Shown: positions 13 through 63,437 of the stretch, piece by piece
Position numbering within the stretch: position 1 is the stretch's first letter
How the letters are laid out: each line of letters starts with the position of its first letter
Notes under the pieces: model-generated
What the model saw: the letters and a program-made list of their open reading frames with translations, nothing else
Told to the model about the DNA's origin: nothing
The model's database searches: none
From: Candidatus Gorgyraea atricola
Lineage (GTDB): Bacteria; Omnitrophota; Gorgyraeia; Gorgyraeales; Gorgyraeaceae
NCBI GenBank assembly: GCA_030765235.1
Contig: JAVCCW010000029.1
Span: 76,939 to 140,938, forward strand
Direction of reading: 5' to 3'
DNA: 64,000 nt
Position numbers and translations under genes: made by a program

Positions 13-1149
13 TTGTTATCCTCGAATACCCTCCTGTACGCAGATACTATACATCTAAAAAACGGCAGTAAGGTCGAGGGTATTATCACAAAAGAAGACG
101 AGGAGTCTGTCCAGATAAAGATAAATATCGGGGCCACGGTCGCATTTTCAAAAGAAGACATAAAAAGCATAGAAAGAGATTCTGGCGACGCGCATTCTGA
201 AATGAAAAAATCCTGGGAGGATGAGAAGGCAGAAAGAAAAATCGTAGACGTTGATATAGAAAGAAATATAGAGAAAGGCCTTGTTGAATATGAAGGCAAG
301 TGGATCACGCCCGAGAAAAAAGAAAGACTCCAGGCGGCGGATATAGCCGGAGGCGTAAAAAAGGAAGAAAAAAAGAGAAGATTTTCATTTAACGAAGATA
401 ATGAAAAGAGGTCAGATTTCGCGACAAAGCTTCTTAAGAAAGGAAAATGGTTTCTTAAAGAAACAGAGCATTTTTCAATATTCTATACAGACCTGGCCCA
501 GGCAAAGATAGTGAGCGACAAGGCGGAATACTATTTTGAGAAGATAGCGTATGATTTAGGTTACGAGGGCCAGATAAAGTGGAAGACAAAATGCCAGGTA
601 TATATCGTCGAGAGCGTTGATAAATGGAAACCCTTTTTAAAAAAGATAGGGTTTAATCCAGAGTTAGTCGGAGGCTTTGTCCCAAATTATAAAGAAAGAG
701 AAATGTTTCTCTGTGTGCTTTCAGATGGATATCTCGCTGTTACATTTCCGCATGAATTGACTCATCTTATATTCAGGGACATAGCTGGTAAGAGCACTAT
801 CCCATTATGGCTAAATGAGGGGTTGGCGAATTATGAGGCCAGTGTTACCAGTGTTTCCAACGATCTTCTAGTGAAATACATAAAAGAAGGGACCCATATA
901 CTGCTTGGTGATTTATTGCGCATTGGAACTTATCCTGAAGGAAAAAAGATGAGAGAGCTTTTTTATGCCCAGTCAGAAAAATTAGTGGAATTTCTCATCA
1001 CTCAGCATGGCAGAAAGAAATTCAGAAAATTCTGCGATCTTATATTAAAGGACAAGTCCTTTAAGGATTCGCTTTTTAGCCCTTATAAGGGGGACTTTGA
1101 AGACCTGGAGGATTTTAATATACAACTTGTGGAGTATATTGTAAAGTAA
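13..1149 (+). CDS. Hypothetical Lys/Glu-rich protein with a gluzincin-type zinc-metallopeptidase motif (HELTH-x17-WLNEGLANY, M1/peptidase-MA-like). Probably 5'-partial, since the reading frame is open to the window edge.
   Basis: Long ORF. Contains HExxH followed about 18 residues later by the NEGxAxY glutamate signature typical of gluzincins. No stop codon upstream within the window. Confidence 0.5.
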   Translation: MLSSNTLLYADTIHLKNGSKVEGIITKEDEESVQIKINIGATVAFSKEDIKSIERDSGDAHSEMKKSWEDEKAERKIVDVDIERNIEKGLVEYEGKWITPEKKERLQAADIAGGVKKEEKKRRFSFNEDNEKRSDFATKLLKKGKWFLKETEHFSIFYTDLAQAKIVSDKAEYYFEKIAYDLGYEGQIKWKTKCQVYIVESVDKWKPFLKKIGFNPELVGGFVPNYKEREMFLCVLSDGYLAVTFPHELTHLIFRDIAGKSTIPLWLNEGLANYEASVTSVSNDLLVKYIKEGTHILLGDLLRIGTYPEGKKMRELFYAQSEKLVEFLITQHGRKKFRKFCDLILKDKSFKDSLFSPYKGDFEDLEDFNIQLVEYIVK

Positions 1150-1576: not shown

Positions 1577-2469
1577 AGAAGCTATTATTGATAGTTTTAG
1601 TTTGTTTTTTTATTATTCCAACAGTAGTATCTGCTAAGGAATCACAGGAGGAACTTAAGACATATTTAACTCAAATGCACAGGATAGTTATGGAGGTAGA
1701 GGCAGCAATACGGATGATCAGCCTTAATCCCTTAGTAAGTGAATCTGTGACAGGGCAGATATCCAGATCTATAGAGAAGTTTGAAAACCTGAAATCACCT
1801 GTGGTTTTTTCAACAGATCATAATTCCATGCTTACTTCATTTAAACTCATAAGAGACGGACTAACGTTTATATTAAAACCTAACAAGAAACAAGAATCAG
1901 TGGATCTTGTAAAAAAAGGGGCAGATCTTCTAAGGAAGGCAGCTATGAATATAAAGACAAGGGCCGAGCAAGAAGGCCTTATACCCGAGAAGACGACTTC
2001 CACGACGTCTAAAAAAACTAGCTTACCTTCGCAGGCTCCATCAATGATCGCAGGTACACCGCCTATGCCTTCACCTCATATTGCTTCTCCTCAGATAGAG
2101 ACTATACTGACAACTACTACGATTAAGCCTTCTGCCAGTATTAGTGTGTCAGATACTGCAGGTGTATCTGCTATCCCAGCTATTAAAGTAGATTCACAGG
2201 GGGGTTCGGATCAGCCTGCTGTCTTGGCTGCGATTGGTGAAATAGCATCTGTGAAGTCGCAGGAAGATTATTTTATTGTAGAAATTTTGGATAATAATGG
2301 AAATAGCTTAGAAGTTGATATCACGCCAGGGCAGTCTACTATATTAAAAAATCATATCAGCGCAAATCCTCTTGATATCACAACAGGGTCTTCTGTTCAC
2401 GTGCTTTATACCCAAAAAGACAATAGAAATCTTGCAGGATTTGTCAATATTTTGGGATCTACTGATTAG
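1573..2469 (+). CDS. Secreted hypothetical protein with a Ser/Thr/Pro-rich linker
   Basis: The ATGA start overlaps the previous stop. Hydrophobic signal peptide (LLLIVLVCFFIIPTVVSA). Low-complexity T/S/P stretch in the middle. Confidence 0.5.
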   Translation: MKKLLLIVLVCFFIIPTVVSAKESQEELKTYLTQMHRIVMEVEAAIRMISLNPLVSESVTGQISRSIEKFENLKSPVVFSTDHNSMLTSFKLIRDGLTFILKPNKKQESVDLVKKGADLLRKAAMNIKTRAEQEGLIPEKTTSTTSKKTSLPSQAPSMIAGTPPMPSPHIASPQIETILTTTTIKPSASISVSDTAGVSAIPAIKVDSQGGSDQPAVLAAIGEIASVKSQEDYFIVEILDNNGNSLEVDITPGQSTILKNHISANPLDITTGSSVHVLYTQKDNRNLAGFVNILGSTD

Positions 2470-2805
2470 ATGCTGGATATTTCAAGAACCGAGAGATCTA
2501 TTATTTTGGCATTTCTTGTCATGGGCCTGCTTTATGCAGGCCTTTCTTATTATGTAAAGACAAAGACTAACTCTGAGATTAAGACAGTTCACATTGACGA
2601 ATCCCGCTTTTTAATCAATATCAACACAGCTGATAAATTTGAGTTAGAACGCCTTCCTGGCATAGGCCCGGTCATGGCAGGAGATATTGTAGCGTATAGA
2701 GAGACAATAGGGGAATTTACAGGCATAGAACAGCTCAAGGACATAAAAGGCATAGGTGATAAGAAGTTCGAGAAGATGAAGGAGATAGTAACTATAAATG
2801 AATAA
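2470..2805 (+). CDS. comEA: Competence protein ComEA (helix-hairpin-helix DNA-binding protein, N-terminal TM anchor)
   Basis: The C-terminal sequence LININTADKFELERLPGIGPVMAGDIVAYRE...GIEQLKDIKGIGDKKFEKMKE is a classic ComEA tandem HhH. An N-terminal TM helix is present. Confidence 0.8.
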   Translation: MLDISRTERSIILAFLVMGLLYAGLSYYVKTKTNSEIKTVHIDESRFLININTADKFELERLPGIGPVMAGDIVAYRETIGEFTGIEQLKDIKGIGDKKFEKMKEIVTINE

Positions 2806-2840
2806 AGGAGTTATAGATACCTTTCCTCGATGAAAAATTA

Positions 2841-2869
2841 TTGACAAAAAGGTTTTTTTGTAGTATATT
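2841..2869 (+). promoter_or_regulatory. Sigma70-type promoter for the 709-aa AT-rich ORF
   Basis: TTGACA, 17-nt spacer, TATATT. Confidence 0.6.
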
Positions 2870-2930
2870 ATAAATAGATTATAAATATAATTAAGAATAG
2901 TCTTGCTGCTACAGGATGAGGAGGAAAATC

Positions 2931-5045
2931 GTGTATAAAAAGCTAAATAAAATCATAGCTGTAATGATCTTGGCAATGTTTGTTTTTACCAACACAAGTT
3001 CTGCAGCCCTAAATGCTGGTACTCTAAGGATTCCTCTGGAGCTAAAGAGAGAAGAATTAAAACCCGATCTTGATTCTCAAACTACATATTTTCTTAATAT
3101 CCTCACGGCCATAGAAAAAGTTATTGATAAGAACTCTTTCCTAAAAAAAACCATACCTGGTAATTTTATTGAGACAATAAAAAGTAATGCACAGCAGCAA
3201 TCTTTTACCATTAATATGCTCAGTTTATATGTACAAAAGTATGACTGGATAATAAATGATTATATTAAACGCAAAGGGGTGGACAAACAAGTGGTACTTA
3301 ATGAAGTACAAAATGATATATATAAACCAATAATCGGATGTTTAGTTAAAATATCCAAACGTATACAAAATGACGATCTCGTGCCTAATGCAGTAAGCGG
3401 GTTAAATTTATCTATGAAGGATAATTTCGAACCCGCAGTTAACATAAAGAGGGAAGCAAGACTTGAATTATTGGGTATGAAGGGTGATCCCTGGCATGAT
3501 GGACATGTGTGGATGATACTGAATCTATTGGCTGATGGCGCTGATTTTGTGTCAGTTATGTTAGATAACAGCGATCCGGAACGTAAAGTTAATTTAACAG
3601 GGTTGCCTATAAGAGAAGCGGATTTCAAAGCCCTATTAAATGCAATGCAACCATTTGTCGGATATACTACTGTACAACGCGAAGATAAAAACTTATTCGC
3701 TGCTGATGCAGAAACCATATTTCCTGGATTGATCTATTTAAGGCGTAAAATTGCAGAGCTCATTAGAAATGGCTATAATGCAGGATTTGACCATTTTAAC
3801 TGGTTAAACACTAAGCATGAATATGTTCAACTCGATGTCCCATCCAAACTATGTCATGTCGTAACTAAACTTTTCAATTTGGGAATTAATGCAAAAATTA
3901 ATGTTAGATTTCATCATCGCGAAGGCGATAAAGTGGATGATCCTGAAATTATGGGAAAAGATAGAATTTTTGCAATGGAGGCAACAGCCAATAGAAACAT
4001 TATAGAATTTTTATCTGAATCTGCAGGAAAATTAGTCGAAGAAAAAATAGGTAAGGGAAAAGATGTGGCGTCATGGCAAAAGATATCTGAAGAAGTTAAT
4101 TCATGGAAGGAGAGAAAGATAAAAGATCTGGAAAGTTCTTTGAATGTGTTACAAGAAAAATATTATAAAGAATGGTTTATGCAAGGGAGAGAATTACTTT
4201 CGGATCCGTCTAGAAGTCCAGATCTAAAAACATGGCTAGATAGACTTGATTTATCAATGGATTCGATGAAAGGCATGAATTCACTACAGACTCTTTTGGA
4301 TTCTAAAACAGAGTCTATGCAGCAAGAGGTAATCAATGCCCTTAATCACCACATAAAGGCTCTACACATGAGCTTCGAAGTAGTTGATCAGCCAATGGAT
4401 GCTTCTTCTACAGGGGTAAGAGAACGTGGCGAGAATTATGCAGTGCCGCTATCTATTGTGCCTACATTAGAAGCGTTACAACGTTATCCTGCTTATATTA
4501 AATCTGAAACAGTGGAGACTGATAAGAAAATAACAACTGATATATTGGCAGATCTGATTGATCTTGACATTTTAAGTCTTGATAGTAGCAAAGGGATAAG
4601 AAAAGGAGAAATAATAGCTCATCTTGGCAAGAGCTTACCAGATTATGTTGATATTGATGTTTTGTTGAATAAACTTAACGAGCGCCTATCAAAAGGTCAA
4701 GACAAAAGCGCATTTTTATTTGTCACAAACACAGCATATGATACTGCTTTAGAGAAGTTTCAACGTTTATTAAGTTCTGCATACGGAAATGCCCTGCATG
4801 CAGTAGATAGTTATATAGTTAAATGTATGAATGATAAAAAATTTACAGATGAATTTGCAGCAGCTCGTGAAATTCCATCAGTAGATCTGGCTATAGATAA
4901 GCTCGATTCATTACGCGATCTTCTCATTAAAAATAGAGCTGATGAAATCTGCGTAACAGCTCGTAAATCATGGAATCCTACTTCACTCATTGAGAGAGTT
5001 AAGAATATCAAAAAATCTGGAAACGAAATAGGCAATAAGATATAA
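2931..5045 (+). CDS. Large AT-rich secreted hypothetical protein (about 705 aa), no recognisable domain
   Basis: ORF 2916..5045. The better start is GTG at 2931, preceded by GAGGAGG 6 nt upstream. Signal peptide MILAMFVFTNTSSA. A consensus sigma70 promoter sits at 2841..2869. GC is much lower than in neighbouring genes. Confidence 0.55.
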   Translation: MYKKLNKIIAVMILAMFVFTNTSSAALNAGTLRIPLELKREELKPDLDSQTTYFLNILTAIEKVIDKNSFLKKTIPGNFIETIKSNAQQQSFTINMLSLYVQKYDWIINDYIKRKGVDKQVVLNEVQNDIYKPIIGCLVKISKRIQNDDLVPNAVSGLNLSMKDNFEPAVNIKREARLELLGMKGDPWHDGHVWMILNLLADGADFVSVMLDNSDPERKVNLTGLPIREADFKALLNAMQPFVGYTTVQREDKNLFAADAETIFPGLIYLRRKIAELIRNGYNAGFDHFNWLNTKHEYVQLDVPSKLCHVVTKLFNLGINAKINVRFHHREGDKVDDPEIMGKDRIFAMEATANRNIIEFLSESAGKLVEEKIGKGKDVASWQKISEEVNSWKERKIKDLESSLNVLQEKYYKEWFMQGRELLSDPSRSPDLKTWLDRLDLSMDSMKGMNSLQTLLDSKTESMQQEVINALNHHIKALHMSFEVVDQPMDASSTGVRERGENYAVPLSIVPTLEALQRYPAYIKSETVETDKKITTDILADLIDLDILSLDSSKGIRKGEIIAHLGKSLPDYVDIDVLLNKLNERLSKGQDKSAFLFVTNTAYDTALEKFQRLLSSAYGNALHAVDSYIVKCMNDKKFTDEFAAAREIPSVDLAIDKLDSLRDLLIKNRADEICVTARKSWNPTSLIERVKNIKKSGNEIGNKI

Positions 5046-5053
5046 TAGAGGGT

Positions 5054-6610
5054 GTGAATAAGCGTCCGCTTGCTGTAATTGCGATTTTCTTTGCATTAGG
5101 TATTGTCATTGCTAAGTTTTTGCCTGATTCTGTTCTATTTCCGCATGTATTCGTAGTTAGTTTAATCTTCATTTTATCGTCTTTACTTCTCACTCTACGT
5201 AGGCCAGGTTTAAACCTGGCCTACGGTGTAGATGGGGCGAGAAGAAAAGCCTCAAATATCCTTTTACTTTTATCAATAGCTTCATTCGCGATGCTTCTGT
5301 ATATCAATTCAAATATCTTTCCGAATAATCACATCAGCAATTTCTTAGGAGAGGAAAAACTCAAAACAGAGATAGTCGGCACTATCAAAAGCCCTGCATT
5401 GACGCGGAAGCCGTATTATGGGAAAATTAACTCGACGTATATATTCGACTTAGAAGCCATGCTGGTGAACGGTGAACGGTTTACGGTTAACGGATTAAGT
5501 CAGATAAGGATACAGACGGAAAAAGACTATCAATATGGCGATAGATTGCTTGTTAGAGGGACGATAAAAAGACCGTTCAATAGTGTCATTGCGAGCGAAG
5601 CGAAGCAATCTCAAGAAAAAGAGATTGCTTCGGCTGCTTCGCCCCGTTCCAAATCAGAGATTTGGAACGGGGCTTCGCAGCCTCGCAATGACAAGAGGAG
5701 TTTTGATTACCGAGGATTTCTCGAACGACAAAACATCTTTGCCCTTATAAACACAAGAGAGAATAATATTACTGTCCTATCTCACGATTACAAATCAAAT
5801 CCTATCCTGAGATATGCGTATTTACTCCGCGACAAACTGAAAAATCAAATCATTGATAAGATGCCTTTGGATAGCGGCGCTTTTTTAAGGGCGATTCTTC
5901 TGGGAGATCGCTCAGAATTGCCAAAACATGTTCGGGATTCATTTAAAAACTCAGGTACTATACATGTCCTGGCAATAAGCGGTCTGCATATTGGGATTAT
6001 TGCGCTTATGATCCTTTATCTTTTTAGGCTCTTGAGGGTCAGGAGGGAATTTTCTTACGGATTAACAATAATATTTTTGATATTTTTTGCGCTTCTTACG
6101 CTTTCAAGGCCATCAGTAGTAAGGGCAGTGGTTATGGCATCTATATTTCTTATAGGTATGCTTTTGGGGAAAAAGGTGGATGTGTATAATTCTTTGGGCG
6201 CAGCAGCGCTTTTTATATTGGTCAGGAATCCTAAGGATATTTCCAATATCGGGTTCCAGCTTTCTTTTGCGGCCGTTCTTTCTATATTGTTCTTTACGCC
6301 CAAATTCATGAGGCTTGTGAAGGAGGGGACGAATTTCTATATAAAGAGATTCTTGTATACACCTCTGGCAGTCTCAATATCAGCGTGGGCTGCAACAGCT
6401 CCTTTAATATGGTATTACTTCAAGATCACGACACCCATTGCCATTATCGCTAATCTCTTTATAATACCTGGCCTTTTTGCATTATTGATAGGCGGTCTGA
6501 GTTTTCTATTGCTGGGCTGGGTACCATTTATAGGAGATCTTCTGGCAGGCCTTAATGATTTTCTGTGTCAGGTGATCTTTTTTCTCACAACCTTCTTTGC
6601 ATCCTTTTAA
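5054..6610 (+). CDS. comEC: DNA internalization competence protein ComEC/Rec2 (core channel domain only, no C-terminal metallo-beta-lactamase domain). Contains two in-frame repeat-element insertions.
   Basis: HVLAISGLHIGIIALMILY and a multi-TM ComEC core. It follows comEA. The 26-bp palindrome at 5199..5224 and the 108-bp hairpin element at 5585..5692 are both read through in frame. Confidence 0.8.
   Translation: MNKRPLAVIAIFFALGIVIAKFLPDSVLFPHVFVVSLIFILSSLLLTLRRPGLNLAYGVDGARRKASNILLLLSIASFAMLLYINSNIFPNNHISNFLGEEKLKTEIVGTIKSPALTRKPYYGKINSTYIFDLEAMLVNGERFTVNGLSQIRIQTEKDYQYGDRLLVRGTIKRPFNSVIASEAKQSQEKEIASAASPRSKSEIWNGASQPRNDKRSFDYRGFLERQNIFALINTRENNITVLSHDYKSNPILRYAYLLRDKLKNQIIDKMPLDSGAFLRAILLGDRSELPKHVRDSFKNSGTIHVLAISGLHIGIIALMILYLFRLLRVRREFSYGLTIIFLIFFALLTLSRPSVVRAVVMASIFLIGMLLGKKVDVYNSLGAAALFILVRNPKDISNIGFQLSFAAVLSILFFTPKFMRLVKEGTNFYIKRFLYTPLAVSISAWAATAPLIWYYFKITTPIAIIANLFIIPGLFALLIGGLSFLLLGWVPFIGDLLAGLNDFLCQVIFFLTTFFASF
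5199..5224. repeat. 26-bp palindromic repeat GTAGGCCAGGTTTAAACCTGGCCTAC, copy 1 (in-frame inside comEC)
   Basis: Perfect palindrome containing GTTTAAAC. Seven copies in the window. Confidence 0.9.
5585..5692. repeat. 108-bp MITE-like double-hairpin element with GTCATTGCGAGCGAAGC terminal inverted repeats, inserted in-frame (36 codons) in comEC
   Basis: Termini GTCATTGCGAGCGAAGC...GCTTCGCAGCCTCGCAATGAC. Internal hairpins GAGATTGCTTCG and CCCCGTTCCAAATC/GATTTGGAACGGGG. Confidence 0.7.
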
Positions 6611-17927: not shown

Positions 17928-17956
17928 GGTAAGAAGTATTTAAAAGTCTTTAATTG

Positions 17957-19585
17957 ATGATCATGAAAAAAGTAATATTGATTTTAATAATATTGTCCCT
18001 CCTGACTCAAGGGCAGAGTTTTGCCTTGAGGCCGCGTTTGCGTTTTAATGAGCCAGAAATACTTAATTCAAATAAAGAAATTAATCCTGAAGACTATGCC
18101 ACAGGTGAAGAGATATCAATTACAAGTGGGCAGGTTATACCTATGCCAGACACAGACGGTATTTATGTGGTAGATTATCTACTAGAAAGATACGTTGATT
18201 CCGACGAGGCCAAGACAAGACTTTTTGCCATAGTCGAGAAAGAAGGAAAAGATATTATTGCCAAAATAATCTCCAAAGAAGATAATGGCACAATAAAACT
18301 TTGGGAAAAACATAAATTCATCAAAGGAAAATTTAAAAGTAAATACGGCAAATATGTTAGCGGCAAATGGAAACTTGTTTTCGTTAACATGGAAGCTTAT
18401 ATCACAGCTGAAGAAATGCCTCTTGTAAATAGATTTCCTACGTTTATTCCAAGAACCAATCAGGTACACTTACCGGATTACCTGATGAGATTATATCCCA
18501 ACATCAAGAGGATGATAGTAAAAGAAAAAGGCAATATTATTACTAAAATATTCTCTAGAGAAGATGGTAAAGTGATAGTCTGGGAAAGGTATAGGTTCAT
18601 TCCATGTGGGATTATAACGAGAGGCGGTGCATATTTTATTGGTAAATGGAAGCGCATTTTTTATCTAGAAAATTATACTGTCTCCAGAGAAATGCCTATT
18701 GCAGTAGTATCCCCGCGGTTGATACCAGAGGGAGAAAATAGACTCTATATACCACGTTATCTAATGGAAACCTATGTTAATCCTAACAAAGCCAAAACAA
18801 GACTTTTTGCTATGTTAAAAAAAGAAGAAGGCTATATTAACTGTAAAATAATTTCCAGAGAATCTGATGGAATAGTAAAATACTGGGGAAATCATAAGTT
18901 CATACTAGCCAAAATTAAAAAGCAGGGCGTAGAATTCGCTGGTAAATGGAAATTCGAATGGAGTAAAAGTTTTGTTGCTAAAAAGCCAAAAAGGGAAGTC
19001 GGTAAAAAAGAAGTCTCTAGAGAAAACTCTTCTAAAAAAATCTCTTTTTACCGCGAGCTCAAGAGGCAGTTGAAGATGGGAAATAAAATAAAAGACTATT
19101 ACAAGAGGTTAGGGCTAGGCATATATGCCACTACTGACGAGATAAAAAGGGCATATCGCATGTTAGTAATGCAGTTTCATCCTGATCAGGGTAAAGATTC
19201 AGATGCAAAGGTCTTTAAATTGATCAAAGAGGCATATGAAGTTTTAAAGGATCCCAAAAAAAGACAAAGTTATGACCGTTTCATGAGAAATAGTTTCAAA
19301 CCTACAGAGTTAAAGAAAATAAACAGTTACCTTGAGCGACCTGAGAATATAGGAGTAATTTTTCATTTTGACAAAAGGACGGGCAAGAGAGTATTCCTTA
19401 TTCCGCGTAAGGTTGTAGCTAAAGCTGTAAAGATAGATGTTGATCTAATCGACTGGGCTATTGAGAAACATAACTATCAACAACATAGAAAAACTGGAGG
19501 ATATTTCACCCCATTCTCCTTTCCACCTGAAAAGATGCTGAATAGTATATTAGAAACAGCAGACGCAGCACGGACAGATAATTAA
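17957..19585 (+). CDS. AT-rich membrane-anchored or secreted J-domain protein. Three ~100-aa tandem repeats are followed by a DnaJ (HPD) domain and a C-terminal domain.
   Basis: Signal or anchor peptide KKVILILIILSLLTQGQSFA. Three repeats share Y[LV].Y....KAKTRLFA....E....KIISRE.G.IK.W...KFI..K.K....F.GKWK. J domain YYKRLGLGIYATTDEIKRAYRMLVMQFHPDQ. Consensus promoter at 17899..17927. Confidence 0.6.
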   Translation: MIMKKVILILIILSLLTQGQSFALRPRLRFNEPEILNSNKEINPEDYATGEEISITSGQVIPMPDTDGIYVVDYLLERYVDSDEAKTRLFAIVEKEGKDIIAKIISKEDNGTIKLWEKHKFIKGKFKSKYGKYVSGKWKLVFVNMEAYITAEEMPLVNRFPTFIPRTNQVHLPDYLMRLYPNIKRMIVKEKGNIITKIFSREDGKVIVWERYRFIPCGIITRGGAYFIGKWKRIFYLENYTVSREMPIAVVSPRLIPEGENRLYIPRYLMETYVNPNKAKTRLFAMLKKEEGYINCKIISRESDGIVKYWGNHKFILAKIKKQGVEFAGKWKFEWSKSFVAKKPKREVGKKEVSRENSSKKISFYRELKRQLKMGNKIKDYYKRLGLGIYATTDEIKRAYRMLVMQFHPDQGKDSDAKVFKLIKEAYEVLKDPKKRQSYDRFMRNSFKPTELKKINSYLERPENIGVIFHFDKRTGKRVFLIPRKVVAKAVKIDVDLIDWAIEKHNYQQHRKTGGYFTPFSFPPEKMLNSILETADAARTDN

Positions 19586-48013: not shown

Positions 48014-49057
48014 ATGATAAAGTTTAAAAAACTACCCTTTTTAAAAATTATTTCTCTATGTGTGAGCATTTGTTTTTTTGTACACACTATAGTATATGCT
48101 GCACCTAATTTAAGACCTAATTCTATCTTAGATAGAGTGGATAAAATAGATGATGAAAAAAGACTCAACATAACATTGTCTATTATTAGTTCAAACAGTA
48201 AGATCGAAAAAGAGATTAGGTTAATTCTTGAATCTTTAAGGCCAGTAGATTTTCAAATAAAAAACGAGCTTACTCTAGAAGAATTCGAGCAGCATATAAA
48301 AAGTGAACTAAAAAAACGCAATATAAAGTATAAAGATTCAAAAACTCAACCATGGAATACGTTTTTTTATCTTTCCAGAGATATAATAGTAAGTATTGTA
48401 TCTTTAAATCTTAAACGACTAGCTATAAATTTACCAGAATTGATTTTTATGACCTTTATACCCAGTGCTTATGGACATCAAAAATTTACTTTTAGTCGCG
48501 ATTCAAAATTGTCAAGTGTTCAGATAGTGACTACGGGACGATTTAATTTTACGACTCCTATATTGCATTATTCTGTTATTTTAGGAGCACTTGCGCCAAA
48601 GTTTTTAAATATGAATTTTGATAGGCCCTTTCTTCTATTTTTAGTATTATCAGCACTATTTTCTATGGTTATGTTTTCTTTTATGGGGGCATATTTTGAA
48701 AGGCAAAATTATAAATTTAGGAAGGGTATTAAGATGCATGAATTAATACATGGACAGACGTATTTGTCAGAAGATGTTCTAAAAGAAAAAGGAAAAATAA
48801 AAAAATACATCGGCATAGGTTTGTCAGATTATTTTGAAAAGAATAAAGAATCTCTAAAGAAAACCATTAGCAGAAATGACTTTTTTAAATTAGAAGAGGA
48901 AATTTTAGCTGCGATTAAACATGAGTTAAAAAAGAATGAATCAGATATTGATTTACAAAAGCGTACAAATCCTAGAAAAAGAAAAATTTTTAGAAGAGCC
49001 GTTTTTAATATAAAGAATATTTTAGGAACTACTGCTAAAATTACTCAAAATATATAG
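48014..49057 (+). CDS. AT-rich hypothetical membrane protein (347 aa)
   Basis: Several hydrophobic segments and a Lys-rich C-terminus. Very low GC. No recognisable motifs. Confidence 0.45.
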   Translation: MIKFKKLPFLKIISLCVSICFFVHTIVYAAPNLRPNSILDRVDKIDDEKRLNITLSIISSNSKIEKEIRLILESLRPVDFQIKNELTLEEFEQHIKSELKKRNIKYKDSKTQPWNTFFYLSRDIIVSIVSLNLKRLAINLPELIFMTFIPSAYGHQKFTFSRDSKLSSVQIVTTGRFNFTTPILHYSVILGALAPKFLNMNFDRPFLLFLVLSALFSMVMFSFMGAYFERQNYKFRKGIKMHELIHGQTYLSEDVLKEKGKIKKYIGIGLSDYFEKNKESLKKTISRNDFFKLEEEILAAIKHELKKNESDIDLQKRTNPRKRKIFRRAVFNIKNILGTTAKITQNI

Positions 49058-56930: not shown

Positions 56931-57833
56931 ATGGACACATACGGCATAATAGGTTATCCAGTAAAACATAGTTTATCTCCAGCAATGCACAATGCTGCGT
57001 TCAAAAAACTCGGCATCGACGCAGAATACCGCAAATTCGAAGTAAAACCCACCGAGCTGGAAGGTTTCTTGCTTGGAAATATTTCAGTTAAAGATACAGA
57101 TGGAAATCCTATACATGCTGGACAAGTAAAGGGGTTTAACATAACTATTCCGCATAAGGTAAAAGCGAAAGAAATATTAGAGAAGAAATTTCCTAACGCT
57201 TCATCTGATTCTGATATTGCTTTATCAGGAGCAGTTAATACAGTTAAAAGAGTTGGAGATAAACTTGAATACAGAAATACAGATGTTTCAGGTTTTGGCG
57301 AATCTCTTGATAAAGATTTAAAATTTGGAGCATCAGAGCGTAAAGGAAGTAGCGTATTCATATTAGGATGCGGAGGAGTTGCTAGAGCAATTATAGCGGA
57401 TTTAGAGAATTCTCATGTTCGTAAGATATATGTTTATGATATAGATAAGAATGCCGTAGATTCGGCAGAGAATCATTTTTCAGGTCTTTCAGGTAAGCTT
57501 GAATTTGTTCGTCAGCAAAAGGAAATAAATAACAAGATAAAAGATTGTAAATTATTAGTCAATGCTACACCTATAGGCATGGAACAAGACGATGAGTCTC
57601 CTATAGACAAGAAATTGCTTCATAAAGATTTATATGTTTATGACGTTGTTTACAATAGACAGACTCAGCTTGTAAAGGACGCATTTGCATCAGGGGCTAA
57701 GGCTGTAACAGGAGAAGGCATGCTTGCTTGGCAAGGAGTATTAGCTTTTTTCTGCTGGATAGATAGATGTAAGCCTGTTGATGATGTTATAGGGGTAATG
57801 AGGCAGGCATTGGATAATGCCTTAGAAAGGTAA
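56931..57833 (+). CDS. aroE: Shikimate dehydrogenase (compositionally mosaic; the middle and C-terminal part is AT-rich)
   Basis: N-terminal GIIGYPVKHSLSPAMHNAAF, NTD motif, Rossmann motif LGCGGVARA. Confidence 0.75.
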   Translation: MDTYGIIGYPVKHSLSPAMHNAAFKKLGIDAEYRKFEVKPTELEGFLLGNISVKDTDGNPIHAGQVKGFNITIPHKVKAKEILEKKFPNASSDSDIALSGAVNTVKRVGDKLEYRNTDVSGFGESLDKDLKFGASERKGSSVFILGCGGVARAIIADLENSHVRKIYVYDIDKNAVDSAENHFSGLSGKLEFVRQQKEINNKIKDCKLLVNATPIGMEQDDESPIDKKLLHKDLYVYDVVYNRQTQLVKDAFASGAKAVTGEGMLAWQGVLAFFCWIDRCKPVDDVIGVMRQALDNALER

Positions 57834-61523: not shown

Positions 61524-63437
61524 ATGGGGCTAGATGACGATGTTTTAATTGTAGGTCAAGGAGGTACGATTTATTTACCAATGGCTTGTGCTGTTAGAGC
61601 GAAAAGAGTAGACATAGTCCAGCCTGATAGATCCGAGAATGTTAAGCAGCGTAAACATTTGAAAGATAAATTTGATCATATGAGAATTTTTGAGGCTGGA
61701 ACATTGCAAGCTTATTTAGTCAATAAGATTGATATCGATAGCTATAGAGGCTTAATTGAAAATGTAAGAGTTCCCAAAGGACATTATCGTTATGTGTTTA
61801 TACCTGCTGTTTTGGATTATCTTAATCGTTTTGCACGTAGTAAAAAGGAAAAACTTGTCAAAGCTATTTTATCTACTCTTAAAGACGATGCAGTCGTACT
61901 CATATCTACACTAAGCGGAAATACGAAAATTACAGTGAAGCAGGAAGCTGATTTTTTTCAAGAATATGCAAAGAGTCATGGTTATGAGATTACAGGAAGA
62001 AGAGCGCTGAGGCCTGTTCATACTTTAGGCGGAAGCCCTACTATCGAGCTTAAGATAAGTCGAGAGACAAGGCATGATGCAGTCAAAAAAATTGCAGAAG
62101 AAGTTTTGGGAGATATCGAGAGAATGTGGCATAGGATGGTAAAAGATCAGGAGTTAATTTTTGAAATAGTTAGCGATAGGGATTTATTTGAGTCCATTCC
62201 AACAGATTTAAGGAAAGATATTCCTTATGCAGCGTTGCATCAAGTAGGCCTAAATATTACTTTAATTTATGGAGATCTCCAGTATCTGATGGAAAAAGGG
62301 CAACCATATGTGATTGAGAAGATGTATAAGAGCTTGTTGCTAATCGAACCAGATTTAAAGACGATGATAAAACTTAATCGAGATGAGATGATAGAGGTCT
62401 TAAACCGAGGTTTAAGACTTAAACTAGGAACGCTCAGTAATAAAAAAGATGATATTGGTCCTATTGATGAATTAGCGCGTCAAACTATTCAGGCTGTTTT
62501 GGATGGAATAGAGGTAGAAGAAGATAAGCTATTAGGGATTCGAGATGTTCTTCCAGAAACCATCAAAATTATTACTGAGCTCAGAAGAATGATTACTGAA
62601 GAAAAATTAATCATTAAAATAGAAGAAGATGAGTTTGTGATTCTGAAGGAGCTGTATACTAATGTGTATAAGGCTGATGATTCAAAAAGACAAAAGAAAG
62701 TAGTGCTTAAGTTTCAAGGAGATAGAAATAGCTCAGTATACGAAAAAGCCTTCTTCGAGCTAGTTCCTCCTCATGATAATATAGTTAAAGGATATGCTTT
62801 AGAAGATGAATCAGGAAAGATCTTGATTGTACAAGATTTTATTGAAGGCAAGACATTAGAAGACTATAGTGATTTAGAAGGGGTGGATCATAAACGTTAT
62901 TATAAGGAGTTATTCCCGATATTATTAGAGAAATTTGTAGAAGCAGTTAACGCGGAAAAACACGTATTAAAGAATGACCAAAGGATGTTTTATCATGAAT
63001 TTGATTTAGATCATATCATTATCGATGAAACTAGGGCAGGAAAACCTATCCTGATAGACTTTAATGAGCCCGCTCCTAGGCAAATTGAGAAAAAAGTTAT
63101 TTCAAATATTGGAAACTCATTATGTAAGTTAGTTATGGCGCAGTTATACAGCGATGACGAAGATGATCTTTCTGAATATGGTATAGATGATGACGATCTT
63201 AATAAGGATGATTATGCTGTTAACGCAAAAAAAATCTGTCCATATGTTTCTGATGAACTAAACCAGATACTAATGAGATTTGCAGCGAGTAGTACTAATC
63301 CTTATGAAGATATAGATGAATTAATCAATGATCTTGAAGTTGTGCTAGACTATCTCAAATCACAATTTTCTCCATCCGAGAGTATCGAGTCTTTGTTGAA
63401 TAACGGTAATCTCGAGACCTTGAGAAAGCAGTTATAA
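61524..63437 (+). CDS. AT-rich 637-aa hypothetical protein. N-terminal Rossmann-like segment and a C-terminal atypical protein-kinase-like (ePK-like) domain with an acidic tail.
   Basis: DVLIVGQGGTIY (Rossmann or MTase-like motif I). In the C-terminal half: VVLKF (VAIK-like Lys), HDNIVKGY (HPNIV-like), ILIVQDFIEG (hinge-like), HEFDLDHIIID (catalytic-loop-like), ILIDFNE (DFG-like). Confidence 0.5.
   Translation: MGLDDDVLIVGQGGTIYLPMACAVRAKRVDIVQPDRSENVKQRKHLKDKFDHMRIFEAGTLQAYLVNKIDIDSYRGLIENVRVPKGHYRYVFIPAVLDYLNRFARSKKEKLVKAILSTLKDDAVVLISTLSGNTKITVKQEADFFQEYAKSHGYEITGRRALRPVHTLGGSPTIELKISRETRHDAVKKIAEEVLGDIERMWHRMVKDQELIFEIVSDRDLFESIPTDLRKDIPYAALHQVGLNITLIYGDLQYLMEKGQPYVIEKMYKSLLLIEPDLKTMIKLNRDEMIEVLNRGLRLKLGTLSNKKDDIGPIDELARQTIQAVLDGIEVEEDKLLGIRDVLPETIKIITELRRMITEEKLIIKIEEDEFVILKELYTNVYKADDSKRQKKVVLKFQGDRNSSVYEKAFFELVPPHDNIVKGYALEDESGKILIVQDFIEGKTLEDYSDLEGVDHKRYYKELFPILLEKFVEAVNAEKHVLKNDQRMFYHEFDLDHIIIDETRAGKPILIDFNEPAPRQIEKKVISNIGNSLCKLVMAQLYSDDEDDLSEYGIDDDDLNKDDYAVNAKKICPYVSDELNQILMRFAASSTNPYEDIDELINDLEVVLDYLKSQFSPSESIESLLNNGNLETLRKQL

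What the first reader, a model, noticed from the sequence alone, without database searches (positions are those of the whole stretch)
2841..5045. Foreign-looking 705-aa secreted protein inserted between comEA and comEC with its own promoter
Competence genes comEA and comEC are normally adjacent or separated only by comEB. Here a large AT-rich ORF sits between them, with a signal peptide and no recognisable domain. It is driven by a consensus-like sigma70 promoter at 2841..2869 and carries a strong GAGGAGG RBS. The composition suggests horizontal acquisition. Its position suggests either a novel competence or DNA-uptake accessory factor or an island that targeted the com locus.
Basis: partly seen in the sequence, partly recalled or inferred. 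Interest (0 to 1): 0.6.

Follow-up and report, generated by a model that had tools for sequence, protein, structure and literature searches.

The report
Leader-tagged NadD-like enzyme in swap slot
The gene between comEA and comEC is not a DNA-uptake factor: it is an unannotated, signal-peptide-bearing relative of the NAD-making enzyme NadD, found only in Omnitrophota, and it sits in a slot where related genomes carry different enzymes behind the same promoter and leader.

Summary
A 704-aa ORF (GTG 2931..5045) lies between a ComEA-like and a ComEC-like gene. It has a TTGACA-17-TATATT promoter (2841..2869), a GAGGAGG RBS and a Sec-type N-terminal leader. It is AT-rich (GC3 0.28 against a window mean of 0.45). 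Pfam and NCBIfam give no direct hit.

It does have a recognisable fold. Residues ~175-340 plus 478-530 form a divergent NadD/NMNAT-like HIGH-motif nucleotidyltransferase (HDGH, SSTGVR), split by a ~140-aa helical insertion. The family profile hits NadD in the PDB at E 8e-5. The AlphaFold model (pLDDT 90) gives NadD as its top 24 structural matches.

The family is rare: 43 clusters among 1.84 billion. Every named member is from Omnitrophota. It occurs mostly as a module in giant signal-peptide proteins beside PGM/PMM, PGI, FBPase or PfkB domains.

Most homologues are unlinked to com genes. An 83%-identical copy lies elsewhere with the same promoter. At the same slot, relatives carry a GT4 glycosyltransferase, a PGI-like gene, an unrelated 764-aa protein, a distant NadD-like protein with a kinase domain, or nothing. 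A 223-nt promoter-plus-leader module (2825..3047) is shared across different gene bodies.

Verdict: an accessory cargo gene in a variable slot, not a competence factor. The acceptor substrate and the protein's location are unresolved.

The parts
2470..2805 (+). ComEA-like gene (111 aa: N-terminal TM segment plus helix-hairpin-helix DNA-binding domain). Upstream flank of the slot.
   Evidence: Pfam HHH_3 E 2.3e-21; NCBIfam TIGR01259 and TIGR00426.
2825..3047 (+). Conserved 5' module (223 nt): promoter, 5'UTR, RBS and codons 1-39 (signal peptide plus TLRIP). Two different gene bodies at two different loci share it.
   Evidence: Window vs L001 homology starts at 2825. Window vs L025 homology ends at 3047. 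L001 vs L025 share only this stretch (87% over 226 nt).
2841..2869 (+). Sigma-70-type promoter: -35 TTGACA (2841-2846), 17-nt spacer, -10 TATATT (2864-2869).
   Evidence: 11 of 12 match. The core TTGACAAAAAGG..GTAGTATATT is unique in the window. It also lies upstream of a different gene (GT4) at the same slot in L004. Variants lie upstream of the L001 and L025 genes.
2918..2924 (+). Shine-Dalgarno GAGGAGG, 6 nt upstream of the GTG start.
   Evidence: Sequence. GGGAGG/GGGGAGG is kept in L001 and L025.
2931..5045 (+). 704-aa ORF (GTG start; stop at 5043-5045): leader, N-terminal helical domain, NadD-like nucleotidyltransferase core with a helical insertion, C-terminal helical domain.
   Evidence: dN/dS against the L001 copy is 0.385 overall.
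2931..3008 (+). Sec-type signal peptide, aa 1-26 (MYKKLNK / IIAVMILAMFVFT / NTSSAA). It is the only hydrophobic segment in the protein.
   Evidence: Kyte-Doolittle scan. Conserved in P0002, P0037 and P0004. No signal-peptide predictor was available.
3021..3035 (+). TLRIP motif (aa 31-35). It is part of a recurrent post-signal motif (T/A/N/S)LR(V/I/L)P found on proteins with unrelated bodies.
3453..3950 (+). Nucleotidyltransferase core, N-terminal part (aa ~175-340): beta1, the KGDPWHDGH (HxGH) loop at 3480-3506, DNSDPERK, AGFDH.
   Evidence: The family profile aligns it to NadD FDPpHnGH. The AF2 model has pLDDT ~90-97 here. dN/dS is 0.21.
3948..4361 (+). Helical insertion of ~138 aa (aa 340-477). 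It is absent from the compact family members and from NadD.
   Evidence: AF2 helices 181-318 of the model. The spacing between the two motifs is 308 aa here against ~175-200 aa in compact members. dN/dS is 0.76.
4362..4526 (+). Nucleotidyltransferase core, C-terminal part (aa 478-532), with QPMDASSTGVR. The SSTxxR motif lies at 4404-4421.
   Evidence: Aligned to NadD 'vSSTmIR'. dN/dS is 0.13.
4527..5042 (+). C-terminal helical domain (aa 533-704). It is a separable module: P0039 carries it alone at its N-terminus.
   Evidence: P0039 matches query 565-681. One search gives secondary structure only, at low confidence.
5054..6610 (+). ComEC-like gene (518 aa; DUF4131 plus Competence domain; no metallo-beta-lactamase domain detected). 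It starts 8 nt after the ORF's stop. The scan found no terminator-like site between them, so co-transcription is likely.
   Evidence: The N-terminus is conserved in L003, L004 and L025.

Best explanation
The segment 2825..5045 is an accessory gene unit in the genome of the Omnitrophota bacterium Candidatus Gorgyraea atricola. It consists of a conserved 223-nt 5' module (sigma-70-type promoter, RBS, Sec-type signal peptide ending in TLRIP) joined to a 704-aa body.

The catalytic core of the body (aa ~175-340 plus 478-532) is a highly divergent member of the HIGH-motif nucleotidyltransferase superfamily. It is closest to NadD/NMNAT, keeps the HxGH and SSTxxR motifs, and is interrupted by a ~140-aa helical insertion. 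By the chemistry of that superfamily it should transfer a nucleotidyl (most likely adenylyl) group from an NTP onto a phosphorylated acceptor, releasing pyrophosphate.

The acceptor is not established. A sugar phosphate (giving an NDP-sugar) is favoured by the domain fusions. NMN/NaMN (giving NAD or NaAD) is favoured by the closest structural relatives.

The gene is a stand-alone version of a module otherwise embedded in giant, signal-peptide-bearing multi-enzyme proteins of Omnitrophota. It lies between comEA and comEC because the position just upstream of comEC is a variable slot in this clade. The promoter-leader module and the flanking genes are retained there while the gene body is exchanged. 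The position does not reflect a role in DNA uptake.

Shown: the anatomy, the fold, the family distribution, the slot polymorphism, the module sharing, and purifying selection on the core. Inferred: catalytic activity, the acceptor, export, and co-transcription with comEC.
For: Fold. The profile of 25 family domain segments hits NadD in the PDB (1kam_A E 8e-5, 8aih_A 4e-4). Thirteen of the top 14 hits are NadD, NMNAT, PPAT or NadR, and both motifs align in register. The AF2 model of aa 160-532 has pLDDT 89.9 and pTM 0.89. Its top 24 Foldseek PDB hits are all NadD (E 3e-5, prob 1.0, target-TM ~0.55). Viral-library hits are also NadD or cytidylyltransferase-like. Pfam CTP_transf_like appears below threshold, in the right register, in 4 of 10 homologue segments.

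Bridge to NadD. The distant member on L014 hits NCBIfam NadD TIGR00482 at E 2.8e-6 and the family profile at E 1.6e-11 and 1.4e-14.

Family. There are 43 clusters among 1.84e9 representatives. The two motifs lie 175-340 aa apart in nearly all of them. All named clusters are Omnitrophota 'hypothetical' proteins.

Fusions. PGM/PMM occurs in 5 of 8 giants scanned, plus PGI, PfkB and GlpX FBPase. This matches the modules reported for Omnitrophota giant proteins (bioRxiv 10.1101/2023.11.21.568195, section 8).

Selection. dN/dS is 0.13-0.21 in the core and 0.76 in the insertion.

Slot. Synteny pepMA-orf1220-orf1573-(comEA-cargo)-comEC-bamD-lptE-holA is conserved. The cargo is a PGI-like gene (L003), GT4 plus RAYT (L004), P0037 (L025-27), a 365-aa protein (L013), a NadD-like protein with a kinase domain (L014), or none (L006, L008-L011, L015).

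Module boundaries.
Against: The window protein itself scores nothing against Pfam CTP_transf_like or NCBIfam NadD. Profiles built only from close relatives (A1, A3) do not reach NadD. The sequence link therefore depends on the broad family alignment, which includes members found at E 1e-5 to 6.5e-4. The AF2 model used that same alignment.

A Sec-type leader predicts export to a compartment without ATP. This is hard to reconcile with an NTP-dependent enzyme unless the protein is delivered into another cell or the topology prediction is wrong.

Most family members have Q in place of the first His of HxGH, so activity is not guaranteed.

Two NadD-like genes (window and L014), and five leader-bearing genes in all, lie directly upstream of comEC. 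A functional tie to comEC is therefore not fully excluded.
Confidence: 0.6

Rival explanations
1. Competence accessory factor: the protein works with ComEA and ComEC in DNA binding or uptake, for example by processing incoming DNA or nucleotides in the periplasm.
For: It lies between comEA and comEC on the same strand, 8 nt from the comEC start, with no terminator-like site found between them. A distant NadD-like family member (L014) and three other leader-bearing genes also lie directly upstream of comEC.
Against: The 83%-identical copy, with the same promoter, sits beside a RAYT transposase, Smr, ORF6N and HTH genes, with no com genes on a 7-kb contig. P0004 lies in a cobalamin cluster. Five further family loci have no com genes within 6 kb. 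Relatives have unrelated enzymes or nothing at the slot, and six lack comEA there altogether. There is no similarity to ComEB or other competence proteins.
Confidence: 0.06
2. Genuine NMN/NaMN adenylyltransferase: an NAD-synthesising NadD paralogue that is exported or injected to alter NAD pools outside the cell or in a host or prey cell.
For: The nearest sequence and structure relatives are all NadD/NMNAT. The family member on L014 is fused to a uridine-kinase-like P-loop domain. From my own knowledge, not tested here, that layout resembles NadR (NMNAT plus ribosylnicotinamide kinase). P0004 lies in a cobalamin nucleotide-loop/salvage cluster; from my own knowledge, NaMN is a substrate in that pathway.
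Against: Identity to NadD is only 13-18%. No NadD equivalog model is matched by the window protein. The family's invariant polar residues (K219, R228, D287, H288, D302, R330) are not obviously the NaMN-binding set. Most fusions are to hexose-phosphate enzymes.
Confidence: 0.15
3. Non-catalytic module: the NadD-like fold has been recruited as a binding or scaffolding domain of surface or secreted proteins, and the stand-alone protein is a structural or adhesive exoprotein.
For: The predicted export removes access to ATP. Most homologues replace the first His of HxGH with Gln. The large helical insertion and the helical N- and C-terminal domains dominate the protein. The modules occur in giant proteins that the literature predicts to be extracellular.
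Against: Both nucleotide-binding motifs, plus about ten further polar positions, are invariant or nearly so across the family. The core is under the strongest purifying selection in the protein. The window protein keeps both histidines.
Confidence: 0.15
4. Artefact: a mis-assembled or decaying foreign fragment, that is, a pseudogene or a chimeric contig.
For: The composition is deviant and there are only two close homologues.
Against: The 704-codon frame is intact. dN/dS is 0.385 against the L001 copy. An independent assembly reproduces the junctions at 99.96% identity.
Confidence: 0.02

Closest known systems
NadD / NMNAT (nicotinate- or nicotinamide-mononucleotide adenylyltransferase), e.g. 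Bacillus subtilis NadD, PDB 1kam/1kaq
   Same: It has the same Rossmann-like HIGH-nucleotidyltransferase fold. It has the GxxxPxHxGH loop after beta1, a G-x-D-H strand motif and a C-terminal SSTxxR helix, all in the same order. NadD is the best sequence-profile hit and the best structural hit.
   Different: Identity is only 13-18%. It is below every curated family threshold. It has a ~140-aa helical insertion between the last strands, extra helical domains of ~130 aa (N-terminal) and ~170 aa (C-terminal), and a Sec-type signal peptide. It belongs to an Omnitrophota-restricted family fused mainly to hexose-phosphate enzymes. Activity and acceptor are untested.
HldE/RfaE (PfkB sugar kinase fused to a cytidylyltransferase-like ADP-heptose synthase) and NadR (NMNAT fused to a P-loop ribosylnicotinamide kinase); comparison drawn from my own knowledge of these proteins
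   Same: The logic is the same: a kinase or mutase that makes a phosphorylated acceptor is fused to a HIGH-type nucleotidyltransferase that activates it. Family members are fused to PfkB (P0023), PGM/PMM (five giants) and a uridine-kinase-like P-loop domain (L014).
   Different: The window protein is stand-alone and has no kinase or mutase domain. It has no detectable sequence relationship to HldE domain II. Neither HldE nor NadR carries a signal peptide.
Modules of Omnitrophota giant proteins ('Archaeovorins', West-Roberts et al. 2023, bioRxiv 10.1101/2023.11.21.568195)
   Same: The window protein aligns over aa 59-681 with residues 742-1350 of a 2766-aa Omnitrophota protein (E 2e-130). The giants carry N-terminal signal peptides and PGI, FBPase and PGM/PMM modules, as that paper reports for regions it predicts to be extracellular.
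   Different: The NadD-like module is not named in that paper, nor in the 2026 Omnitrophota giant-protein preprint: term searches for adenylyltransferase, NadD and cytidylyltransferase returned nothing. Here the module is a separate 704-aa gene with its own promoter.
Polymorphic toxin/effector loci (constant N-terminal trafficking module, variable C-terminal domain); comparison drawn from my own knowledge of these loci
   Same: A constant 5' module (promoter plus signal peptide plus LRxP motif) is joined to unrelated bodies (NadD-like, P0037, GT4). The gene bodies at one locus are exchanged between genomes, and the units are AT-rich.
   Different: The constant part is only ~39 codons. The bodies are metabolic-type enzymes, not toxins. 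No immunity gene, Rhs/CDI or T6SS marker was seen.

Membership tests
HIGH-motif nucleotidyltransferase superfamily (Pfam CTP_transf_like PF01467; NadD/NMNAT branch) | (H/T)xGH motif in the loop after the first beta strand | tested here: met
   KGDPWHDGH at aa 184-192. It aligns to NadD FDPpHnGH in the profile search. The second His is nearly invariant in the family.
HIGH-motif nucleotidyltransferase superfamily (Pfam CTP_transf_like PF01467; NadD/NMNAT branch) | C-terminal ISxxxxR / SSTxxR motif | tested here: met
   QPMDASSTGVR at aa 487-497. S492 and R497 are invariant in 25 family segments. It aligns to NadD vSSTmIR.
HIGH-motif nucleotidyltransferase superfamily (Pfam CTP_transf_like PF01467; NadD/NMNAT branch) | Rossmann-like alpha/beta fold superposable on solved members | tested here: met
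   AF2 pLDDT 89.9. The top 24 Foldseek PDB hits are NadD, with E down to 3.1e-5, prob 1.00 and ~166 aligned columns. The model is predicted, not solved.
HIGH-motif nucleotidyltransferase superfamily (Pfam CTP_transf_like PF01467; NadD/NMNAT branch) | Score above the curated threshold of PF01467, or of an NCBIfam NadD model | tested here: not met
   The window protein has no hit. The best homologue segment scores 20.8 bits against a cut-off of 21. L014 scores 27.5 bits against 112 for TIGR00482. This makes it a superfamily member by profile and fold, not a member of the curated families.
HIGH-motif nucleotidyltransferase superfamily (Pfam CTP_transf_like PF01467; NadD/NMNAT branch) | NTP-dependent nucleotidyl transfer to a phosphorylated acceptor (NaMN or NMN for NadD) | not testable with these tools
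   This needs an enzyme assay.
Competence (com) operon component | Conserved linkage of homologues with comEA/comEC across genomes | tested here: not met
   Of 7 independent homologue contexts, 5 have no com genes nearby: L001/L002, L023/L024 and L018-L022. Two lie upstream of comEC (window and L014). The slot holds unrelated genes or none in 10 other comEC loci.
Competence (com) operon component | Homology to a known competence protein (ComEB dCMP deaminase, ComF, DprA and so on) | tested here: not met
   No such Pfam or NCBIfam hit.
Mobile genetic element / genomic island | Terminal inverted or direct repeats (target-site duplication) at the boundaries | tested here: not met
   No repeat pair brackets 2806-2830 and 5031-5053.
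Mobile genetic element / genomic island | Integrase or transposase within or beside the segment | tested here: inconclusive
   There is none between comEA and comEC in the window. A RAYT-type Y1 transposase lies beside the cargo in L004 and beside the second copy in L001. A REP-like element lies inside the window's comEC.
Mobile genetic element / genomic island | Presence/absence or content polymorphism at one site among relatives, with deviant composition | tested here: met
Sec (SPase I) secreted protein | n-h-c signal peptide with small residues at -3 and -1, and no further TM segment | tested here: inconclusive
   Sequence and hydropathy fit: KK..K / 13 hydrophobic residues / S-A-A, with a single hydrophobic segment. 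No signal-peptide predictor or experiment was available. Cytoplasm-type enzyme bodies on the same leader make true export uncertain.
   No such Pfam hit. The fold of the core is NadD-like.

The most novel reading that the evidence does not exclude
This Omnitrophota clade has a portable 'expression-and-export' module: a conserved promoter, a Sec-type signal peptide and an LR(V/I/L)P motif. Recombination places this module in front of diverse enzymes that normally work in the cytoplasm. Those seen here are the NadD-like nucleotidyltransferase, a GT4 glycosyltransferase and a protein combining a P-loop kinase with a NadD-like domain.

On this reading the enzymes form an exchangeable repertoire of secreted effectors or exo-enzymes for a host-dependent or predatory lifestyle. 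The position directly upstream of comEC would be a conserved expression site whose occupant is swapped between genomes.

A stronger version is that the ComEC-like channel itself is functionally tied to these leader-tagged proteins.
Probability: 0.2. Interest if true: 0.75.

Novelty: new variant of a known kind. Interest (0 to 1): 0.5.

Why it matters
First, it assigns a fold and a likely chemistry to a protein family that every source labels 'hypothetical'. That family forms a recurring module of the giant proteins of Omnitrophota, a phylum with no cultured isolates and a suspected predatory or host-dependent lifestyle.

Second, if the leader truly exports these proteins, then NTP-dependent enzymes (a nucleotidyltransferase, a glycosyltransferase, a kinase) are being sent outside the cytoplasm. 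That points to delivery into other cells or to unusual envelope biochemistry. The question can be tested directly with one 704-aa protein rather than a giant one.

Third, the 223-nt promoter-leader module shared by different gene bodies, together with the swap slot upstream of comEC, gives a concrete handle on how this lineage shuffles its accessory enzymes.

For competence biology the result is negative: the position next to comEA and comEC is not evidence of a role in DNA uptake.

Tried and rejected
- AF2 on the full protein with the only two close sequences gave pLDDT 35.7 and was unusable.
- Direct scans of the ORF gave nothing: Pfam, NCBIfam, PHROGs, PADLOC, and the PDB with the A1 profile.
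- The PDB search with the 5-sequence close-relative profile A3 found no NadD hit. The link needs the broad alignment A2.
- The word-indexed homologue search returned only P0001 and P0002 for the single protein and for the A2 profile. It returned nothing for the leader profile A6.
- The viral-contig scan found no relative.
It was repeated with A3.
- A search for flanking repeats or a target-site duplication found none.
- hhalign of the NT profile against the L013 protein and P0037 was negative, so those cargos are unrelated.
- No canonical NadD lies in the window or the fetched loci.
- S-layer, phage and defence-system readings were considered and dropped for lack of any hit.
Full report
1. WHAT IS IN THE SEQUENCE

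The window comes from Candidatus Gorgyraea atricola (phylum Omnitrophota; MAGs from Ace Lake, Antarctica). The ORF's product is 100% identical to NCBI 'hypothetical protein P9L93_05965'.

The ORF listing gives an ORF at 2916..5045. The true start is GTG 2931, giving 704 aa. It is preceded by GAGGAGG (2918-2924) at a spacing of 6 nt. The ATG at 2916 is not conserved in the closest homologue.

Upstream lies a 111-aa ComEA-like gene (2470..2805; HHH_3 E 2e-21). Downstream, 8 nt after the stop, lies a 518-aa ComEC-like gene (5054..6610; Competence domain E 2e-54).

The promoter TTGACA-17-TATATT sits at 2841..2869 and matches 11 of 12 positions. On its own this is weak evidence, because 20 promoter-like sites were found against 16 expected in 5 kb. 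Its conservation in three other contexts makes it credible (see section 5).

The ORF is AT-rich. GC is 0.352 and GC3 is 0.276, against means of 0.426 and 0.448 (sd 0.037 and 0.073) for 53 window ORFs.

The N-terminus (MYKKLNK-IIAVMILAMFVFT-NTSSAA) has the form of a Sec signal peptide. It is the only hydrophobic segment in the protein.

An independent JGI assembly (L017) reproduces 2307..5083 at 99.96% identity, so the arrangement is not a chimera.

2. HOMOLOGUES

The word-indexed search found only the protein itself and one 83%-identical protein, P0002.

The exhaustive HMMER search of 1.84 billion cluster representatives found 43 proteins at E <= 1e-3:
- Five align over nearly the whole length (P0003-P0007, E 1e-130 to 1e-88, 936-2766 aa).
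- Most of the rest share only query residues ~120-340, inside proteins of 1000-3700 aa.

All clusters that carry a source name are from Candidatus Omnitrophota. They are labelled 'hypothetical', or 'response regulator' after another domain.

Two motifs recur in order, 175-340 residues apart: PMKGDPW(H/Q)xGH and QPMDxSST(x)(V/I)R.

3. THE FOLD

The motifs resembled the HxGH and ISSTxxR signatures of HIGH-type nucleotidyltransferases. I treated that resemblance as a lead and tested it in four ways.

(a) Pfam on ten homologue domain segments gave CTP_transf_like below threshold, but in the right register, in four of them (E 4.8e-4, 5.7e-3, 0.07, 0.14).

(b) A profile of 25 family segments (A2) was searched against all PDB sequences. 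The top hits were NadD: 1kam_A at E 8e-5, 8aih_A at 4e-4, 4ymi at 5e-3. Thirteen of the first 14 hits were NadD, NMNAT, PPAT or NadR, and both motifs aligned.

(c) AlphaFold2 on window residues 160-532 with that alignment gave pLDDT 89.9 and pTM 0.89. Foldseek against the PDB returned NadD for the top 24 hits (E from 3.1e-5, prob 1.00, ~166 aligned columns, target-normalised TM ~0.55). The viral structure library also returned NadD and cytidylyltransferase-like proteins.

(d) A distant family member found later (L014; hhalign 97% probability, E 1.6e-11; A2 HMM E 1.4e-14) hits the NCBIfam NadD model TIGR00482 directly at E 2.8e-6.

Caveats:
- The window protein alone, and profiles of its close relatives only, do not reach NadD.
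- Curated family thresholds are not met.

The protein is therefore a member of the superfamily by profile and predicted fold, not of any curated family.

The model shows a Rossmann-like core. A six-helix insertion (aa 340-477) lies before the last strand and the SSTxxR helix.

Comparison with the L001 copy gives these dN/dS values:
- 0.21 and 0.13 in the two core parts
- 0.76 in the insertion
- 0.385 overall

The gene is thus functional, and the core is its most constrained part.

4. WHAT THE FAMILY IS FUSED TO

Pfam scans of eight giant homologues gave these domains:
- PGM/PMM domains in five
- PGI in one
- PfkB sugar kinase in one
- GlpX fructose-1,6-bisphosphatase in one
- response-regulator receivers in one

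L014 carries a uridine-kinase-like P-loop domain after its NadD-like domain.

West-Roberts et al. (bioRxiv 10.1101/2023.11.21.568195, section 8) report PGI, FBPase, PGM/PMM, TPI and aldolase modules, together with GT5 and GT1 domains, in Omnitrophota giant proteins. They predict these regions to be extracellular, with reservations. Term searches for adenylyltransferase, NadD and cytidylyltransferase found nothing in that paper or in a 2026 preprint on Omnitrophota long proteins.

The pairing of a mutase or kinase with a nucleotidyltransferase is the logic of HldE and NadR (my own knowledge of those proteins). It suggests two steps: make a phosphorylated acceptor, then adenylylate it.

The acceptor could be either of two kinds:
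- A sugar-1-phosphate. The fusions favour this, as do the slot neighbours GT4 and PGI.
- NMN or NaMN. The closest relatives favour this, as does L014's NadR-like layout.

The data here cannot decide between them.

5. WHY IT SITS BETWEEN comEA AND comEC

Fourteen loci encoding ComEC relatives were retrieved from species-representative genomes. The synteny Peptidase_MA - orf1220 - orf1573 - ... - comEC - bamD - lptE - holA is conserved.

What lies directly upstream of comEC varies:

| Locus | Gene directly upstream of comEC |
|---|---|
| L006, L008-L011, L015 | the orf1573-like gene abuts comEC; no comEA, no extra gene |
| L003 | comEA, then a 614-aa PGI-like gene |
| L004 | comEA, then a 570-aa GT4 glycosyltransferase with a similar leader, then a RAYT-type Y1 transposase |
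| L025-L027 | comEA, then P0037 (764 aa, no known domain) |
| L013 | a 365-aa leader-bearing protein |
| L014 | the NadD-like protein with a kinase domain |

Homologues of the window ORF, by contrast, are mostly elsewhere:
- P0002 lies beside a RAYT transposase and small Smr, ORF6N and HTH genes.
- P0004 lies in a cobalamin salvage/transport cluster.
- Five further family loci have no com genes within 6 kb.

The boundaries are sharp:
- Window vs L001: DNA homology (89%) runs from 2825 to 5031, which is the promoter plus the whole gene.
- Window vs L025: homology (81%) runs from 2467 to 3047, which is comEA, the promoter and codons 1-39. It resumes at 5054 in comEC. The bodies in between are unrelated.
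- L001 vs L025: only the 226 nt equivalent to 2825..3047 are shared, at 87%.
- L004 keeps the promoter core TTGACAAAAAGG..GTAGTATATT in front of its GT4 gene.

A 223-nt promoter-leader module is therefore shared by different genes at different loci, and the body behind it at the comEC-upstream slot has been exchanged.

No terminal repeats or mobility genes lie within the window segment. REP elements and RAYT transposases are nearby in the window, L001 and L004, but their involvement is conjecture.

6. MECHANISM, WITH STATUS OF EACH STEP

Shown:
- a discrete promoter-leader-ORF unit
- a NadD-like predicted fold with intact HxGH and SSTxxR motifs
- purifying selection on the core
- an Omnitrophota-restricted family fused to sugar-phosphate enzymes
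- a variable slot with a shared 5' module

Inferred:
- The protein is an active nucleotidyl (probably adenylyl) transferase acting on a phosphorylated acceptor (about 0.6).
- The acceptor is a sugar phosphate (about 0.35-0.4) rather than NMN or NaMN (about 0.15).
- The protein is exported. The leader fits, but export conflicts with the enzyme's need for NTPs.
- comEC is co-transcribed from the cassette promoter (8-nt gap, no terminator-like site found).

A competence role is unlikely (about 0.06).

7. NOVELTY AND VERDICT

The fold and chemistry are of a known kind. Three things are new:
- an unannotated, lineage-restricted NadD-like family with a large insertion
- its signal-peptide context
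- the promoter-leader module with exchangeable enzyme bodies upstream of comEC

I rate it a new variant of a known kind, with interest 0.5.

The most novel reading not excluded is that these leader-tagged, cytoplasm-type enzymes are a swappable secreted effector set of a host-dependent bacterium. I give that a probability of about 0.2.

Noticed in passing
window 5585..5692 (inside comEC): A 108-nt nested palindrome of REP type (GTCATTGCGAGCGAAGCGAAGCAATCTC ... CTCGCAATGAC) is inserted in frame in comEC. It adds ~36 codons (…VIASEAKQSQEKEIASAASPRS…PRND…) between the DUF4131 and Competence domains. The L003 and L004 ComECs lack it. The same 29-mer lies on L002, upstream of the P0002 gene; on L001, which overlaps L002, that region holds the RAYT transposase gene.
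   Followed up: partly
window 48014..49057 (+): This is the most AT-rich ORF in the window (GC 0.278, GC3 0.207; 348 aa, no Pfam hit). It carries the same kind of leader (MIKFKKLPFLKIISLCVSICFFVHTIVYAAPNLRP…) as the finding, which suggests a second leader-tagged accessory gene.
   Followed up: partly
window 17954..19585 (+): An AT-rich ORF (GC3 0.33) has an N-terminal signal-like segment followed by ALRPRL, and a DnaJ J-domain (E 1e-19) at aa 379-439. A J-domain behind a signal peptide is odd, since J-domains normally work with cytoplasmic Hsp70. The leader HMM did not score it.
   Followed up: partly
L014 2421..4427 (+), directly upstream of a comEC N-terminal fragment: A 668-aa protein has the leader (…SLRLP…), a NadD-like domain (NCBIfam TIGR00482 E 2.8e-6) and a uridine-kinase-like P-loop domain, a layout like NadR. 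The contig also holds a second comEC fragment (aa 195-306) at 81..401 and an AAA-type ATPase gene, so the locus is rearranged or comes from mixed strains.
   Followed up: partly
L023 950..3838 and L024 3450..6338 (P0004): A full-length homologue (962 aa, 32% identity) lies between a cob(I)alamin adenosyltransferase gene and a BtuF/FecCD/ABC transporter, followed by CobC-like and CobU genes. A NadD-like enzyme in a cobalamin nucleotide-loop/salvage cluster may hint at the acceptor, or may be another insertion.
   Followed up: no
L025 7049..7558, and L026/L027 equivalents: In the relative that carries P0037 at the slot, comEC appears interrupted. The first ORF stops after 169 aa in a REP-like translated sequence (…CHCEDEARNNL*), and the rest continues in another frame. 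It may be a pseudogene or a REP insertion.
   Followed up: no
window 5054..6610: The ComEC-like protein is only 518 aa (DUF4131 plus Competence domain), with no metallo-beta-lactamase domain detected. In six related genomes comEA is not next to comEC at all. The assumption that comEA and comEC are normally adjacent does not hold in this clade.
   Followed up: partly
whole window: Of 53 non-overlapping ORFs of at least 150 aa, 52 are on the + strand, and GC skew is positive throughout. Gene-strand bias is extreme over 64 kb.
   Followed up: no
window 61524..63437 (+) and 56931..57833 (+): Two further ORFs have low GC3 (0.28 and 0.26). The first (638 aa) has no Pfam hit. By eye the second resembles a shikimate dehydrogenase (not scanned). 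Low GC3 is therefore not confined to leader-tagged genes.
   Followed up: no
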